Below are positions 1,548-57,335 of a DNA stretch of 64,000 bases, piece by piece (positions within the stretch are counted from its first letter, which is position 1; each line of letters opens with the position of its first letter). The notes under the pieces are model-generated. The model was given only the letters and a program-made list of their open reading frames with translations, searched no databases and was not told the origin of the DNA. The DNA lies in assembly GCF_006345805.1 (NCBI RefSeq), contig NC_042997.1, forward strand, positions 96,472,001-96,536,000, read 5' to 3'. Made by a program: the position numbers and the translations under genes. The stretch comes from Octopus sinensis (Eukaryota).

Positions 1548-2178
1548 CAATAATATAAATAATATATAAATATATGCATATATACATACATATATGTACA
1601 TACCTACATATATATGTATATATATATATATGCATACATGCGTACAGGACATTAAAAAGACGTTGAACACAATGAGAAACGAAAACAAAAGCAAAAACAT
1701 AGAAACGAACTTTTTTTCGGACAACGAAAAAAACAAACAGAGAAACGAGACATACAACGTAAAGAATATTCTCCTTCTGCAGTTGTCTCTATTTCAACTA
1801 CTCCACAGGGCGAAGGCAAGGACAAGACGCGACTTCGTTGAAACAATCCTTCCCGCAAAACAAATCAAATCAAATTTGGGATTTTTTGCAGAGGGTGAAA
1901 GTGGTAACAAGAGCAGGACAATGAGATCAAAACAATAAACACAATAAAAAAGTAAAAGCAGTAAAAGACAGAACAATGAGAACAAAACAGTAAAAGCAAA
2001 GGCTGTTAAGCCAAGACGATGGCAAAATTATTGTGAACGTTTAAGAAGGCGAGCTTATGAAGAGACAGTACAAGCCCGTTTAGTCTTTGCGGAGCTAGTA
2101 GTCAGATGGATCCCCTCTAGTCACGTGTGAGCGACGAGAGAGTCGAGGAGGAGCAGTGATAGAGAGGGAGCGGTGAAG
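1545..2178 (-). mobile_element. Non-coding repeat, family 2, carrying a decayed permuted-hammerhead motif
   Basis: Reverse complement aligns with ~6420-7060, including the CACGTGA motif, T-rich body and TA-like tail. Confidence 0.75.
1776..1852 (-). ncRNA. Non-circularly permuted hammerhead-like motif (decayed copy)
   Basis: GAAGG..TTGTTTCAAC..CGCG-TC-TTGTC..CCTTC-(GCCC in place of GAAA)..GTTGAAATAG..GACAA-CTGCAGA; stems I, II and the extra helix pair, core is mutated. Confidence 0.5.
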
Positions 2179-6761: not shown

Positions 6762-6838
6762 GAAGGACTGTTTCAAAGAAGTCGAGTCTTGTCCTTACAT
6801 TCGAACGCGGAGTAGATGAAGAAGGAGAATACTGAAGA
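6762..6838 (+). ncRNA. Non-circularly permuted hammerhead-like motif (decayed copy)
   Basis: GAAGG...CGAG-TC-TTGTC..CATTC-GAA-CGCG...CTGAAGA; its lesions are complementary to those of the 1776-1852 copy. Confidence 0.5.
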
Positions 6839-10933: not shown

Positions 10934-11545
10934 AATAACACTTTATATATAAAGAACGTGAAATTCACGAATTGACGAACACGGAAAACAGACAGTCATT
11001 CAGAGCCTTCATTCTTCAGTCAGAAACCGATTCATCATGGCAAATTTCGGCTGTTTAATTCTGAGATTTGCTCCAAAACGGCCAGCCCCAAGAAAAAGCT
11101 AAGCTACGGGCATTAGATTTTCTTGGTAGAAGGAAAGAATGTGACAACAGATACGAATAGGAAAACAAGAGACGAAGATAAAATTGGAAACAGTAACGAA
11201 TAAAAACAGGAATGGCACGGGGCGTCTTACGACTTTGAGACAAAATGGGACAAAAACAATTGATCAGCAAGCGTGGGAAGCGATTACCTTTTCGGTAGAG
11301 ATGACACGTGTAGTACAGGCGGCTGTCACCAATGGAATGGCTTAGTAGCAGCAGGTTGCAAGAAGGTGAGAGAGAAAGAGAGACAGAGAGAGAGGGGATT
11401 AAGGAGGGCCGAGAGCAGAAACAATGACCAAGAGAGAGAGAAAGAAAGAATTAAAGAGGATGAGAGGAAGAGGCGCCAATATAACTTGGTAAAGAAGCGC
11501 CAAAATACCTTGGGGAAGAAGCAATGGCGAATGGGAAATATATAC
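10934..11545 (-). mobile_element. Non-coding repeat, family 3 (related to the 14.8-16.6 kb family)
   Basis: Same layout (CT tract, CACGTG, T-rich body, structured motif, (TA)n); 11013-11130 aligns with 15625-15742. Confidence 0.7.
11013..11087 (-). ncRNA. Non-circularly permuted hammerhead-like motif, intact core
   Basis: GGCTG-GCCG..-GCAAA-TC-TCAGAA-TTAAA-CAGCC-GAAA-TTTGC..CGGT-TTCTGA-CTGAAGA. Confidence 0.65.
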
Positions 11546-13822: not shown

Positions 13823-14848
13823 AAAAGTACACACACATACATATACAAGTGGTTACGGAAGCATTCCTGGCCTTAGGGGTGTCGCAAAAGGCCTTCCGAC
13901 TGCTTATACAGGGCTAAGAAAAACTGAAGGACCACTACAATAAGTGCGTGAATCTCAGAGGGGAATTTGTGGAATAAAATCGTAATTAAATGATCTTCCT
14001 GTAATTTCTTTTACCGAAATTTTAATATTACCTTAAGCAAGAAAAGCTAATATGAATAAATAGAGTGATGAAAATGCGTTTAAAGTTGGAAAGAATTTTC
14101 AATGGTTTTCTTTGATAATTGTTTGTCATGTAATGGTAGGGATAGTTATCTTAACTGTTGCTTTTATCTTAGCAATATTTCTGATTGCGTTCCCTAGAAG
14201 TTTTACAAACTACTGATTGTTAAGATTTGATGAAAGTGAAGTTGATATTTAGATCTAAGTTAAACATTCGGTGCATGATCAAAAGAATTATATCGCTGAC
14301 TATCTCATCGTTTTAGGTGTATCTTATATTAAAATATGATATTAAGAAATGCGTAATTCTGTTTTAAGGAGACGGAGTTTCATTTGATTTGCTATTTCTA
14401 ACATATCTATTTAGGAAGAAGAGACTTGATATATGTTCCATGGAGTAAGGAAGATATACATGAAGAAACGCGTAGTTCAAATCATTTTCCAGTAAAAGCC
14501 GTATTTTGTCTGAATTGAATATATAATTCAAATATACGTACTACTTAAGTGCGTAATTCCGCTACATTCATCTTGCTACTTTCTGTTTCTCTTTTGAACT
14601 CATTTTGATTATATTCATATAGGGATAAAGACATCGTGCTTCCCCCAACCCCACCAATTATGTGAAATATATAATCTGCGGCGCAGGAGTGGCTTTGTAG
14701 TAAGTAGCTTGCTTACCAATCACGTGGTTTCTGGTTCAGCCACACTGCGTGTCACCTTGGGCAAGTGTTTTCTACTATAGCCTTGGGCTGACCAAAGCCT
14801 TATGAGTGAATTTGGTAGACGTAAACTGAAGAAACCCGTCGTATATAT

Positions 14849-16609
14849 TTCTTCCAGGAAATCTACGCTTCCAGCTTAGTTTTTCTTGGAGGGCTGGCCG
14901 TGATCTAGTAATCTCAAGATTAATCAGCCGAAATTACTACGATGATCCGGTTCTTGACTGAAGACTGAGGGGTTCGAATGTCCTGTCCATGTTTATTGTA
15001 TCGTCTTCTATGAGTTATACGTTCTTGTCCATGTTGTATTTTTCTACATACCTTAACATATATTCCAGGCGCCCCGTACCCCCTTTATCATTAATGTGAA
15101 CACATATTCTTAATAATTGGTACGACTCTCTGTTTGTCTCTCTCTCTCTCTCATTTTTACTTTCTCTCTATTCATCTTCTCTTTCCTCTGATCCTTTGGT
15201 CTAGTCTTCCACTACCCTCCTATTTCTTTGTCTCGCTCTGCACTCACAGGTCATTCTTCGACACCCATCCCTTCTCCTCTCTGATTCCTTCTTTCTCTCT
15301 CTTCTCTCTCTTTGTTGCGTTTTGTCCCCCTTTTCTCTCTCTCTCTTTCTTTTATTTTCCCTCTTCTCTGTCACGTGACTGTTGGCCGAAATCTGCCTTT
15401 CAGCTCCTGACCCTCGTCGTGTTAACATCGTTGTTCTTCGTCCGCCGCTATAAAGGCTTTTTCCAATGCGCCAGAGAAAAAATTTGTTTGCTTGTTATCA
15501 GTCGTAAGACACTTGTTGTTTTCACCGTTAATGCTTCTGTATTTCATGTTTCTGTATTCCATTATTGTTTTTTGTTTTTTTATATCTGTCCCTTTTGCTG
15601 TCCTGGTGTTCGTATGCATTCGATCCTTCTTCCAGGAAATCTACGCTTCCAGCTTAGTTTTTCTTGGAGGGCTGGCCGTGATCTAGTAATCTCAAGATTA
15701 ATCAGCCGAAATTACTACGATGATCCGGTTCTTGACTGAAGACTGAGGGGTTCGAATGTCCTGTCCATGTTTATTGTATTGTCTTCTATGAGTTATACGT
15801 TCTTGTCCATGTTGTATTTTTCTACATACCTTAACATATATCCAGGCGCCCCGTACCCCCTTTATCATTAATGTGAACACATATTCTTAATAATTGGTAC
15901 GACTCTCTGTTTGTCTCTCTCTCTCTCTCATTTTTACTTTCTCTCTATGCATCTTCTCTTTCCTCTGATCCTTTGGTCTAGTCTTCCACCACCCTCCTAT
16001 TTCTTTGTCTCGCTCTGCACTCACAGGTCATTCTTCGACACCCATCCCTTCTCCTCTCTGATTCCTTCTTCTCTCTCTTCTCTCTCTTTGTTGCGTTTTG
16101 TCCCCCTTTTCTCTCTCTCTCTTTCTTTTCTTTTCCCTCTTCTCTGTCACGTGACTGTTGGCCGAAATCTGCCTTTCAGCTCCTGACCCTCGTCGTGTTA
16201 ACATCGTTGTTCTTCGTCCGCCGCTATAAAGGCTTTTTCCAATGCGCCAGAGAAAAAATTTGTTTGCTTGTTATCAGTCGTAAGACACTTGTTGTTTTCA
16301 CCGTTAATGCTTCTGTATTTCATGTTTCTGTATTCCATTATTGTTTTTTGTTTTTTTATATCTGTCCCTTTTGCTGTCCTGGTGTTCGTATGCATTCGAT
16401 CCTTCTTCCAGGAAATCTACGCTTCCAGCTTAGTTTTTCTTGGAGGGCTGGCCGTGATCTAGTAATCTCAAGATTAATCAGCCGAAATTACTACGATGAT
16501 CCGGTTCTTGACTGAAGACTGAGGGGTTCGAATGTCCTGTCCATGTTTATTGTATCGTCTTCTATGAGTTATACGTTCTTGTCCATGTTGTATTTTTCTA
16601 CATACCTTA
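14849..16609 (+). mobile_element. Head-to-tail multimer (~2.3 units of 778/776 bp) of non-coding family 1; retrozyme-like
   Basis: Near-identical tandem units; no TE-like ORF; one permuted HHR motif per unit; ends at (TA)n. Confidence 0.85.
14892..14964 (+). ncRNA. Non-circularly permuted hammerhead-like motif, copy 1 (identical copies at 15670-15742 and 16446-16518)
   Basis: GGCTG-GCCGTGATC-TAGTAA-TC-TCAAGA-TTAAT-CAGCC-GAAA-TTACTA-CGAT-GATCCGGT-TCTTGA-CTGAAGA. Confidence 0.65.
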
Positions 16610-16614
16610 ATATA

Positions 16615-31389: not shown

Positions 31390-33678
31390 GTATGTTTAGT
31401 TGTGGTCTGTATTTTTGAATAAGATTACTTTCCCTATTTATTCGTGTTTGGTCTGTGGTGTTGTCCGAGCATTGGTATAGTGGGAAGACTAAGAATTTGG
31501 GGGACTTAGTGTGTGCACAAAGGTCTAAGTGTCCACTTAGTGGTATCTGTGGAGGGGTCCCTCAGTTGTTGTCGGTGAACTGTCATTCTTTCTCTGAGGG
31601 TAAGGCTCGTTTGCCCTATGTAGTCTTCGTGGCATCCTTCACACCTTATGACGTAGAGTAAATTTTTTGATGCGCACGTGAAATTATTTTTTATGATGAA
31701 TGTGTGTCCCGAATGGAACTTGTACGACGATCCCTCAATGAGGTGGATGCAGGTCCTGCAGTTGGGGCGACCACATATTTTGATGGTGGGCGGTGGGTTT
31801 GTGTTGTGTAATTTTGCGTTGGTGAGGAGGTTTTTTAGGGATTTAGGTTGTCTCTTACTTTTTATTATTTTATGAGCTGCCAGTATTTTTTTCAGGCGTG
31901 GGTCTTGATTTAGTTGTGGAATGTTGTTGTATATAATAGTGTAAGCTTCTGCATTCCTTGGGTTGTGTGTTGAGAGATAGGGGAGGCTATTTACTGTACT
32001 GTGGATGTGTTTGGGTTTTCGTAGGTCTTGAATGTTGATTGATTTGGCCCGTTCTATTCCGTTGTCTACTAGTGATGCCGGGTAATGTCTTTCGAGAATT
32101 GCCCTTAGTTCCCGGAGTCTTCTATTTCGTGTTGTGTCATTTGAGACAATAGTGCAGATTCTTCTCGCTAGGTTGAAGGGGATATTTGTCTTTGTGTGTT
32201 TTGTGTGATTGGAGGTGAATAGAAGGTATTGTTTAGAGTCAGTGGGTTTGTAATGGATGTCAGTTTCAATGTTGACGCCTTTTTTAATGATTAGGATGTC
32301 AAGAAAAGGGAGTTGGTCCTGACTATATTCCATTGTGAATTGAATGTTGTTATTTACACTGTTGATAAGGTTTTTGAAGTCTATAAGTTGGTCGAGTGTG
32401 TGGGACCATAGGATGAGGCAATCATCTAAGTAGCGTATTAGTAGTATTTGTGGAAAGACTGGCCGTACTTATATTTGGATTTTTCATAGATATGTGATTC
32501 CAGGTAGGCCATCACCAGGTTTGCATAGGTAGGTGCAACTTTCGTACCCATTGCAGTTCCTGAGACCTGTCTGTAAGTGTTGTTGTGGAAATACATGAAG
32601 TTGTTTTGCAGAATAAATTTGAGGCCCTCAATTATGAATTCTTTTTTAATTCTTTCCGGGATCTCATTGGGATATTTATCCAGCCAGAATTTAATGGCTT
32701 CCAGTCCATATTCATGTGGGATTGTGGTGTAAAGATTAATAACATCAAAAGAAACTATTAAAGTGTCTTTATCGGTATGTTTGGGGAGATGATTTAATAG
32801 GTCCAGGTCATCTCTTACAATACTTGGAATGTGTTTCAGTATTGGCTTTAAGATGATATCTATAAAGTTGCTAAGTCTGTGTGTTTCACAACTTGGGCCT
32901 GCCACTATTGGTCTCAGTTTGAGATCAGTGGGATGTGGTATAGTGATGCAGGTTGAAGTGGACTTTTTGCAAGCTTCTGTGATAATTTGACTCTTGTGTA
33001 TTTTTGGAAGCCCATAGAGTGTGCTGGTTTTGCAATTAAATTTAGTAATGTAGTCGCATTCCTTTGCTGTCAAGTTATTCCGGTGTTGGTAAATGAGTGC
33101 CTTCAGTTTGGTCATTGTTTTGGATTGCTGGTAGTCGACTACTCTTTCATAGTATGTGGTATCCTCTAAAAGGAGAGATACAGAGTTTTTATATTGCTCA
33201 GTATTCATAACAACGACCGTACTACCCTTATCAGCTTCCTTTATTGTGACGTCATGATTGTCTCGTAGCGTATGGATGATTTCCCATTCTCTTTTACTGG
33301 TGTTGGGTTTGAGTTTAGGTTGTGGGAGTTCACCATAAGGAAGTTTGAGATGTAATCGCAAAATTTGTCTAAGGTTTTGTTTTTGCCTTTTATGGGATTA
33401 TATTTGCTTTTGTTACGGACCATTGATTCGTCGTTATTATTAGTTTTCCTGTCAAAAAATTCCTCTGTGAGGCGTAATTTTCTGCAAAAGTGTGAGATGT
33501 CATCCTGTATTTCCCTCAGGTTAGGGTATTGCGGAGTTGGGGTGAATTTTAGTCCTCTTGAAAGGACTTTTATTTGTGGTGTCGACAGGTTTAGGTTAGA
33601 AAGATTCACTATTTTTGGTTTTTCGGGGTTGGTATCTACCATCTGGTGTCGTGGAAACTGATGCCCTTGCCTAAAAAA
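31390..33678 (-). pseudogene. PLE reverse transcriptase plus GIY-YIG endonuclease, broken by about three frameshift lesions
   Basis: LSRGLKFTPTP, EADKG, LPKIHK, LRPIV, SFDVINLYT, GTAMG, RYLDD (32421-32435), LPFLD, CxxxxCxxC linker (CGRPNCRTC), NLLYVIRC..C..YIGQT..LRER...H, RE..LI..PQLN; lesions near 33340, 32440 and 31550. Confidence 0.95.
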
Positions 33679-56574: not shown

Positions 56575-57335
56575 GAGCAGCAATACATAAGCCAAACAAT
56601 AAAACAGACTACGTCAAAAGTTGGCTCTGCACAGATCACTGATCAAATTTCCGAAAAACAGGAAAATAGCACTCAGCCAACACATCAACATTTGCGCCAA
56701 TAACAAAAATCCCACCTTCAGAATTTTCCACCCTATCAATTCAGGGACGATACAACCTGTAGCCAACGAATTAGTAAAGAGTCGTTCTTTATTACAAAAT
56801 ACAGACCCCTTTTGAATGCATCTACAACAAGTGACATATCCACCACAACCTTAGAATAACACACACGCAAATATTAAAAATGATACTTTTCGAAAGGGAT
56901 ACCCAAGAATTCATTCAAAACAGTCCCAATCACTACTATCATCCACAATGAGGCAATTTTAGGGTCACTTGAACATTTAACATCCTACTACCATCATACA
57001 ACGCCCGCATTCTTTTATTATTCTTTTTCTTCTTCTCCTTTTTTCCTTCTTCTTCGTCTTCTTCTCCACCGCCTCCTTCCTTCCTACTGCTGCTTAGAAT
57101 AATACCCACGCAAATATTAAAAACGATGCATTCAAAAGAGATACCTCAAGAATTTATTTAAAACAGTTCCGATCACTACTACCATCCACAACGAGTTACT
57201 TTCAGGGCACTTGACTGTTTCACATCCTACAAATATCATACCAGTCCCGCATTCTTTTATTATTCCTCTCTTCTTCTTCTTCTTCTTCTTCTTCTTCTTC
57301 TTCTTCTTCTTCTTCTTCTTCTTCTTCTTCTTCTT

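What the first reader, a model, noticed from the sequence alone, without database searches (positions are those of the whole stretch)
14892..14964. Non-circularly permuted hammerhead ribozyme conserved by covariation in three repeat families
Seen in sequence: the three HHR core strands occur in the order [III'-UH-I]...[II'-GAAA-III]...[I'-CUGAAGA]. Established: types I/II/III are circular permutations of the order CUGANGA, GAAA, UH, so this reversed order is none of them. Pairings covary across families. Stem I is TCAAGA/TCTTGA here, TCAGAA/TTCTGA at 11013-11087 and TTGTC/GACAA at 1776-1852. Stem III is TAGTAAT/ATTACTA, GCAAAT/ATTTGC and CGCGT/ACGCG (consensus of the 1.8-kb and 6.8-kb copies). 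Stem II is GGCTG/CAGCC versus GAAGG/CCTTC. An extra bridging helix is GCCGtGATC/GATCCGGT versus TTGTTTCAAC/GTTGAAATAG. Cleavage triplets are AUC, AUC and GUC. Only 4-5 nt link the distal ends of stems I and II, which are adjacent in the active HHR fold. Unusually, the stem II 5' strand comes from the motif's 5' end instead of following A9. Six loci occur in the window (1776, 6762, 11013, 14892, 15670, 16446). Inference: an active pseudoknotted or dimeric self-cleaving RNA that standard HHR models would miss. I recall non-circularly permuted hammerheads being reported in a few other eukaryotes, so novelty for cephalopods and for this topology needs a literature check.
Basis: partly seen in the sequence, partly recalled or inferred. 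Interest (0 to 1): 0.93.

Follow-up and report, generated by a model that had tools for sequence, protein, structure and literature searches.

The report
Split-core hammerhead ribozyme in jumping repeats
Thousands of mobile repeats in this animal genome carry a hammerhead self-cutting RNA whose parts come in a scrambled order and whose core is opened at a point thought fixed, a layout also present in a class of jumping genes reported to lack such ribozymes.

Summary
The motif is real. All hammerhead core bases are intact in 4 of the 6 window copies; the other two are decayed. The block order is that of type-SGC (Eckert 2023), but the chain opens between A9 and G10.1. It is therefore a circular permutation of SGC outside the six published orders. 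Across 19 family representatives the upstream stem II is 93% paired, with compensatory changes in 4 of 5 pairs. The alternative stem after A9 is 59% paired. The core spacing occurs 26,434 times in G000 (control 1,955), near the 3' ends of non-coding, tandem, (TA)n-inserted Penelope-like repeats. Truncated copies begin exactly at the predicted cut site in 41 forward loci, against about 3 per position just upstream: indirect evidence of cleavage in vivo. By eye, 8 of 48 published Naiad 3' ends carry the same layout (ctenophore, corals, acanthocephalan, branchiopod, octopus), 6 carry type CSG and 1-3 type SGC, although Naiads were reported to lack canonical hammerheads. Ten paper searches found no description. 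The scan noted a CSG hammerhead elsewhere, not this form. Cleavage is untested in vitro.

The parts
14892..14964 (+). Split-core hammerhead, copy 1 (family A). G10.1=14892, C11.1=14929, G12=14930, A15.1=14933, U16.1=14912, C17=14913, C3=14958, A9=14964; predicted cut 3' of 14913 (AUC)
   Evidence: covariation
15670..15742 (+). Split-core hammerhead, copy 2; predicted cut 3' of 15691
   Evidence: identical to copy 1
16446..16518 (+). Split-core hammerhead, copy 3; predicted cut 3' of 16467
   Evidence: identical to copy 1
14849..16610 (+). 5'-truncated head-to-tail array (2.3 units of about 778 nt) of a non-coding Penelope-like repeat; starts after TATATAT, ends at TACCTTAA before a (TA)n tract, 143 nt 3' of the predicted cut
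14914..15691 (+). Predicted 778-nt monomer RNA, cut site to cut site
   Evidence: inference
11013..11087 (-). Split-core hammerhead, family B, intact; C17 at 11065; stem I TCAGAA/TTCTGA, stem III GCAAAT/ATTTGC. The host repeat runs from about 11548 to 10932 and ends in (TA)n
6762..6838 (+). Decayed copy, family C (one A of GAAA missing, stem I broken)
1776..1852 (-). Decayed copy, family C (GAAA reads GCCC, core reads CTGCAGA)

Best explanation
A self-cleaving hammerhead ribozyme with the three-dimensional core of type SGC, but with its chain ends between A9 and G10.1. The rest of the RNA enters and leaves at the core instead of at a helix end. It sits near the 3' end of non-autonomous Penelope-like repeats (retrozyme-like) and of Naiad elements. 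Shown: the sequence, the four covarying helices, the array geometry and a step in 5'-junction frequency at the predicted cut. Inferred: a tandem transcript is cut at AUC after 14913 into 778-nt monomers. In the monomer the new 3' end stays docked on the 5' part by three helices (II, bridge, III; about 20 bp), which should favour joining into a circle by self-ligation or RtcB. A Penelope-like reverse transcriptase supplied in trans primes at (TA)n from a fixed internal site 143 nt past the cut. Copying round a circle, or along an uncut multimer, gives arrays with a fixed 3' end and a variable 5' end. Copying a cut linear RNA stops at the cut. The likeliest helper for the young families is the intact RT-then-GIY-YIG (Neptune-like) family; the ribozyme itself is likely Naiad-derived.
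For: Core: G10.1 in 18 of 20 representatives; C11.1, U16.1 and a non-G at 17 in 20 of 20 (CGAAA, CTGAWGA and UH were required by the search, so they are not independent). Upstream stem II: 92.6% of cells paired, 4 of 5 pairs with changes on both sides; the whole-structure covariation score of 0.49 was reached by 0 of 500 shuffles, and slid controls gave at most 0.17. Strand-swap tests over 20 representatives gave p=0.00005 for stems I, III and upstream II, also after re-maximising, and for the bridge. The architecture matches SGC-2 in detail, read from the paper's oligos: stem II strand, 0-1 nt, bridge; bridge abutting stem I; 3-5-nt I-to-II linker. Abundance: 26,434 against 1,955 for the reversed pattern. 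Arrays: 21 of 21 family A arrays with a visible 3' end stop at the same base before (TA)n, and their 5' ends scatter. Footprint: of 28 distinct (TA)n junctions listed, 24 lie at +1..+7 and 4 at -1..-22. Exactly at the cut there are 75 loci, 41 forward, against 69 forward loci over all 23 upstream positions. The same GA|TATATAT junction occurs 25 times at +1 and twice at -2 in contigs C1-C6. Same layout in 8 of 48 Naiad consensus ends, read by eye. PLE reverse transcription starts internally on AT-rich targets (PMC11167929).
Against: No cleavage assay. Nested folding gives z-scores of -0.42 to +0.66 for 6 of 6 sequences. For family A it predicts a competing helix (about 14889-14897 with 14947-14955) that would block stems I and II. 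The 20 representatives were picked by me as intact and are related, so the p-values overstate independence; there are about five independent stem II types. In the MAFFT alignment, stems III and the bridge were only 53-60% paired because of misalignment. The junction peak is broad (38 of 45 listed at +1..+14, maxima at AT microhomologies +8 and +10) and was tallied by eye for one family. Most copies read through the cut site. 0 strict hits in 200 kb of arbitrarily placed genome. One Penelope hammerhead cleaved only with protein and was dispensable for insertion in vitro (PMC11167929). No Naiad ORF was reached upstream in 20 of 20 G000 copies, so the Naiad link rests on published consensus sequences.
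Confidence: 0.78

Rival explanations
1. Same fold, but stem II and the bridge are supplied by the next tandem unit, by a second molecule, or across a circle. It would then be a type-SGC ribozyme with a 700-nt insertion between A9 and G10.1 that works only in multimers or circles.
For: The elements form tandem arrays of 620-840-nt units. On a circle the two readings are the same molecule. PLE and amphibian retrozyme hammerheads can need dimers (PMC7229834).
Against: All four helices are 5-10 bp and can form locally within 73 nt. Single Naiad 3' UTRs carry the same local layout. The known dimer cases arise from a very short stem III, which is 5-7 bp here.
Confidence: 0.08
2. A hammerhead-derived fold that cleaves little or only with protein. 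It is kept as a recognition or packaging signal for the Penelope-like protein, or as a pause site for reverse transcription.
For: A protein-assisted, dispensable hammerhead in a Poseidon PLE. A competing fold in family A. A nick at A9/G10.1 lies beside the known metal site (recalled). 8 of 9 Xenopus retrozymes did not cleave in vitro (bioRxiv 10.64898/2026.07.22.740005).
Against: Catalytic bases are kept across lineages whose stems have turned over completely. The step in junction frequency falls on the scissile bond, where unwinding by reverse transcriptase leaves no structure to pause on.
Confidence: 0.08
3. An ordinary type-SGC ribozyme whose stem II uses the bases just after A9; the upstream match is a secondary or inhibitory pairing.
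For: Families with CCTTC can form a 4-bp stem with two G-U pairs after one extra base. A real SGC occurs in Naiad-4_Dst.
Against: After-A9 pairing is 58.9% against 92.6% and no better than swapped strands (p=0.09, 0.34 and 0.95). The window copy scores 2 of 5. The bridge strand follows the upstream stem II strand, as it does in SGC.
Confidence: 0.05
4. Chance complementarity in repeats, amplified by copy number.
For: One founder can give thousands of copies; the families are related.
Against: At least five unrelated stem II sequences and 12 stem I strand pairs all pair, and the same layout occurs in five phyla.
Confidence: 0.01

Closest known systems
Type-SGC hammerhead ribozymes (HRIMA-1 and variants; Eckert et al. 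2023, PMC10085705)
   Same: Block order S-G-C, core bases, a short linker from stem I to stem II, and a bridging helix joining the other sides of stems I and II
   Different: In SGC stem II follows CUGANGA within 0-2 nt and the ends lie between the bridge and stem III. Here those ends are joined and the break is between A9 and G10.1, which the paper assumed could not be interrupted. SGC was found only in metatranscriptomes; this is in an animal genome in thousands of copies, often as CUGAAGA, which their CUGAUGA descriptors exclude.
Type-CSG and type-GCS hammerheads (same paper)
   Same: Same reversed cyclic order; all are circular permutations of one another; CSG has the bridge helix
   Different: Different opening point. 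CSG was known from 2 metagenome sequences; by eye it is present in 6 nematode Naiad consensus ends.
Animal non-LTR retrozymes (PMC7229834; bioRxiv 10.64898/2026.07.22.740005)
   Same: Non-coding tandem repeats with one hammerhead per unit, dispersed, proposed to be non-autonomous Penelope-like elements
   Different: Those carry type I hammerheads and were sought only with type I models; units are mostly 150-450 nt (up to 972). Circular RNA was shown there and is not shown here.
Naiad Penelope-like elements (Craig et al. 2021, PMC8557442)
   Same: (TA)n targeting, 5' truncation, partial tandems. The octopus Naiad 3' UTR, tagged HHR_half_core, holds this same split layout and matches G000 209 times (control 0).
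   Different: The paper concluded that Naiads lack canonical hammerheads. The window families encode no protein and do not align with the Naiad beyond the fold. Naiad copies in G000 are old (pairwise hits mostly 72-92% alike), whereas family A is young.
Discontinuous Clec2 hammerhead of mammals (review PMC6765202, passage)
   Same: A hammerhead assembled around an insertion of hundreds of bases
   Different: From recall, the insertion there is in a helix loop and the block order is canonical; here it is at the A9/G10.1 core junction.

Membership tests
Hammerhead ribozyme | Core CUGANGA, GAAA and UH flanked by stems I, II, III in hammerhead register | tested here: met
   intact in 4 of 6 window copies
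Hammerhead ribozyme | G10.1-C11.1 and A15.1-U16.1 pairs | tested here: met
   G10.1 in 18 of 20, C11.1 in 20 of 20 (C11.1, A15.1 and U16.1 were part of the search)
Hammerhead ribozyme | Covariation of stems | tested here: met
   not R-scape, and the representatives were hand-picked
Hammerhead ribozyme | Site-specific self-cleavage 3' of H17 | not testable with these tools
   indirect only: step in 5' junctions at the site
Types I, II, III | Cyclic order CUGANGA, GAAA, UH around a three-way junction | tested here: not met
   the order is UH, GAAA, CUGANGA; no Rfam hammerhead match listed
Type SGC | Linear order S, G, C | tested here: met
Type SGC | Short linker between stems I and II, and bridging helix | tested here: met
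   linker about 3-5 nt; bridge swap test p=0.00005
Type SGC | Stem II strand follows CUGANGA within 0-2 nt (intact block C) | tested here: not met
   the strand lies 20-32 nt upstream of H17
Non-LTR retrozyme / non-autonomous PLE | Non-coding tandem units with one ribozyme each, dispersed | tested here: met
Non-LTR retrozyme / non-autonomous PLE | Type I hammerhead | tested here: not met
Non-LTR retrozyme / non-autonomous PLE | Expression as linear and circular monomer RNA | tested here: inconclusive
   only contigs of runs guessed to be RNA
Naiad PLE | ORF with N-terminal GIY-YIG, CxC and RT | tested here: not met
   no PLE ORF within 1.5 kb upstream on the same strand of window-family copies; the window elements are non-coding
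Naiad PLE | (TA)n insertion bias, fixed 3' end, 5' truncation | tested here: met
   21 of 21 arrays; not specific, since Neptune elements share it

The most novel reading that the evidence does not exclude
The window shows a seventh, catalytically active permutation of the hammerhead, opened inside the core. It belongs to a family of reverse-order hammerheads (split, CSG, SGC), interconverted by circular permutation and carried by Naiad retroelements and their non-coding derivatives from ctenophores to octopus. This would overturn the statement that Naiads lack hammerheads and make non-circular permutations common in animal genomes. The split form may also act as a three-helix clamp that favours closing the RNA into a circle.
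Probability: 0.6. Interest if true: 0.9.

Novelty: new variant of a known kind. Interest (0 to 1): 0.83.

Why it matters
The hammerhead is the best-studied small ribozyme, and the 2023 count of six possible permutations assumed that CUGANGA and stem II are inseparable. A natural form broken at that point, in roughly 24,000 genomic matches above background, breaks that rule. It also moves non-circular permutations from rare environmental RNAs into animal genomes. It explains a published puzzle (Naiads without hammerheads, tagged half-core) and gives a series of natural permutations for studying how RNA topology evolves. The insertion junctions give genomic evidence that a Penelope-type ribozyme cuts its template in vivo, a point left open for PLEs. 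A ribozyme whose host RNA enters at the core, and whose products stay clamped, could be useful for RNA circularisation and switches.

Tried and rejected
Rfam scan at E<=5: no hammerhead among the 150 listed of 182 matches. The direct-repeat finder was swamped by microsatellites. Minimum-free-energy folding cannot show the pseudoknots and gave no signal. A fourth helix closing the A9/G10.1 junction (bases after A9 with bases before 10.1) is possible in several families but no better than swapped controls (p=0.46), so it is not claimed. Sequencing runs: no RNA holder listed. Four runs laid were contigs only and showed no ends or informative joints. I first took the motif 1.1 kb downstream of GIY-YIG in L164 and L174 for part of the Neptune-like element. 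This was rejected because 9 of 9 long-ORF loci lack it and the element ends before it; these are neighbouring insertions. Walking upstream from 12 plus 20 Naiad-type copies reached no ORF. A 200-kb sample gave 0 strict hits. only repeated. PMC3334697 is not held. Passages of PMC10162972 and PMC544870 held nothing on this layout. Searches of this scan's notes by genome and by sequence gave nothing relevant.

Full report
Observation. Three identical copies lie in a tandem array at 14892, 15670 and 16446, and an intact relative at 11013-11087 on the minus strand. The copies at 1776 and 6762 have broken cores and belong to an older family whose majority sequence is intact. A descriptor for the order UH, GAAA, CUGANGA with stems I and III, an upstream stem II and a bridge found 4 hits in the window and none in 100 dinucleotide shuffles. 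Rfam listed no hammerhead.

What the layout is. I read the main text of Eckert et al. 2023 (PMC10085705; parts 1-6 of 8) and supplement parts 1 and 8; figures were not visible. They define blocks S, G and C, assume that none can be interrupted, and so count six orders. Type SGC has a 3-nt linker from stem I to stem II and a helix binding the other sides of stems I and II; all four helices were needed for cleavage. In their SGC-2 oligos the stem II strand follows CUGAUGA after one extra base and runs into the bridge. In the window the same stem II strand and bridge strand sit at the 5' end, joined to stem III. So the motif is SGC circularised and reopened between A9 and G10.1. Their descriptors require CUGAUGA(U)G directly before stem II and would miss it. 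[quoted passage not shown]

Is stem II really upstream? I gathered more families from a genome pattern search (26,434 matches, reversed control 1,955). Of the first 30 hits, 26 looked like family members by eye, 14 passed the stem I and III test and 9 had an upstream stem II of 5 or more pairs; many of the rest are 5'-truncated. I then fetched 40 more regions at listed places, chosen to avoid family A. From these and earlier loci I picked 20 intact-looking representatives. Stem II variants include GGCTG/CAGCC, GAAGG/CCTTC, GAGCA/TGCTC, GCACC/GGTGC and GACAC/GTGTC. Swap tests gave p=0.00005 for stems I, III and upstream II, also when the upstream partner was re-maximised. For a partner after A9 they gave p=0.09, 0.34 and 0.95. 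The bridge passed (p=0.00005) and a junction-closing helix did not (p=0.46). On a MAFFT alignment of 19 of the 20 (A3 left out as a near duplicate), upstream stem II was 92.6% paired with double changes in 4 of 5 pairs; the after-A9 version was 58.9% paired. Hand-picking and relatedness inflate these p-values. Five independent perfect 5-bp stems is the fairer count.

Host elements. Families A, B and C gave 1,070, 2,223 and 1,874 first-look candidates, and the 40 best family A hits are 100% identical over 141 nt. The 30 family A loci fall in 22 arrays. All 21 with a visible 3' end stop 143 nt past the predicted cut and run into (TA)n, while the 5' ends scatter. Other families show tandem periods mostly of 620-840 nt. 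No PLE ORF lies upstream on the same strand. This is the anatomy of non-autonomous Penelope-like elements and retrozymes (PMC8557442 passages; PMC7229834 passages; bioRxiv 10.64898/2026.07.22.740005 main text, supplements not seen).

Link to Naiads. Craig et al. 2021 state that Naiads lack canonical hammerheads and tag eight as HHR_half_core, among them the octopus Naiad. I read by eye the last 420-600 nt of 48 Naiad consensus sequences in their supplement; the remaining few ends and all upstream sequence were not seen. Eight have the split layout: Bfor (stem I only 2 bp), Amil, Aacu, Anas, Plae, EuTe, Obim and Ovul. Examples are coral II GGCTCC/GGAGCC with I TAGGA/TCCTA, and acanthocephalan II GGCCCC/GGGGCC with I GAGGA/TCCTC. 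Six nematode elements have type CSG (Nbra-1, -2, -3, Hcon, Hpol, Asuum). Dst-4 has type SGC with a long insert, and Smim and Ptep are SGC-like with an irregular stem II. In 31 I recognised none. The octopus Naiad motif matches G000 209 times (control 0), which suggests an octopus genome (inference). Those copies are old and truncated, and none of 32 reached an ORF. G000 also holds intact 775-781-aa RT-then-GIY-YIG elements, 98-99% alike, with a Neptune-type cysteine linker (clade name inferred from the motif, no tree built). They carry their own minimal type I hammerhead and are the likeliest helpers for the young families.

Evidence of cutting in vivo. If the template is cut, truncated insertions should begin at the cut. 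For family A, 24 of 28 listed (TA)n junctions lie at +1..+7 and 4 at -1..-22. With a downstream anchor, 38 of 45 lie at +1..+14 and 7 at +15..+30. Both were tallied by eye from the first 100 rows. Genome-wide, the exact cut-site junction occurs in 75 loci, 41 forward, and all 23 upstream positions together in 69 forward loci: about 14-fold fewer per position. The same GA|TATATAT junction occurs 25 times at +1 and twice at -2 in C1-C6, so microhomology does not explain the step. The spread to +14 fits trimming and microhomology joining (inference). Most copies read through the site, which needs a circle or an uncut multimer. A competing helix predicted for family A could slow cleavage.

Mechanism and limits. 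The proposed cycle is: tandem transcript, cleavage, monomer with ends held by three helices, ligation, internal priming at (TA)n, and copying round the circle. Internal priming on AT-rich DNA is shown for a Poseidon PLE, whose hammerhead needed protein and was dispensable in vitro (PMC11167929 passages). Retrozyme circles are thought to be closed mainly by RtcB. That an extra base is tolerated between A9 and G10.1 is seen in the SGC descriptors; that the backbone there points outward is recalled. Sequencing runs gave nothing usable.

Novelty. Ten searches of the open library returned only Eckert 2023 for SGC or CSG, and no listed paper joining Naiads or octopus to a permuted hammerhead. A November 2026 paper still lists three main types plus the cited variants (PMC13725137 passages). 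Perreault 2011 passages on core insertions showed none of this kind, and PMC6765202 was read in passages. Subscription journals, figures and preprint supplements were not seen. Verdict: a new variant of a known ribozyme class, probably active, with a wide and unrecognised distribution; interest 0.83.

Noticed in passing
window 31394-33678 (-) and 56603-56820 (+): Broken remnants of a Neptune-like Penelope element (52-58% identity to the intact 781-aa protein).
   Followed up: no
L223-L231 (for example L224:1532-3874): Intact, near-identical Penelope-like ORFs of 775-781 aa (RT, cysteine linker, C-terminal GIY-YIG), some with an upstream 479-aa frame; probably an active family.
   Followed up: partly
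L174, minus strand, about 230-190 nt upstream of its split motif; also L164: The 3' UTR of these elements holds a minimal type I hammerhead with U3 (TTGATAA in L174, the U3-A8 variant; TCGATAA in L164), a 5-bp stem II and a palindromic short stem III, as in dimer-type PLE hammerheads. Read by eye.
   Followed up: partly
L164 and L174: A split-hammerhead repeat sits directly 3' of a Neptune-like element; in L174 the two are fused without a (TA)n spacer, which may record template switching by the helper enzyme.
   Followed up: no
L218 and L104 (minus strands): Another repeat family with a canonical-order core (CTGATGA, 6-bp stem II, GAAA).
   Followed up: no
PMC8557442 supplement, nematode Naiads Nbra-1/2/3, Hcon, Hpol, Asuum: Clean type-CSG hammerheads with a bridge helix; only two CSG sequences were published.
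   Followed up: partly
PMC8557442 supplement, Naiads CGi, Sglo, Olur, Tgra, Skow, Pfla: No hammerhead core seen, but a different conserved 3' UTR motif is shared by bivalve and hemichordate elements; possibly another ribozyme class.
   Followed up: no
L221:about 170-240: A near-perfect palindrome enclosing GAAA and followed by CTGATGA; unexplained.
   Followed up: no
window 14700-14830: A separate, very abundant short repeat lies just 5' of the array (very high contig depth).
   Followed up: no
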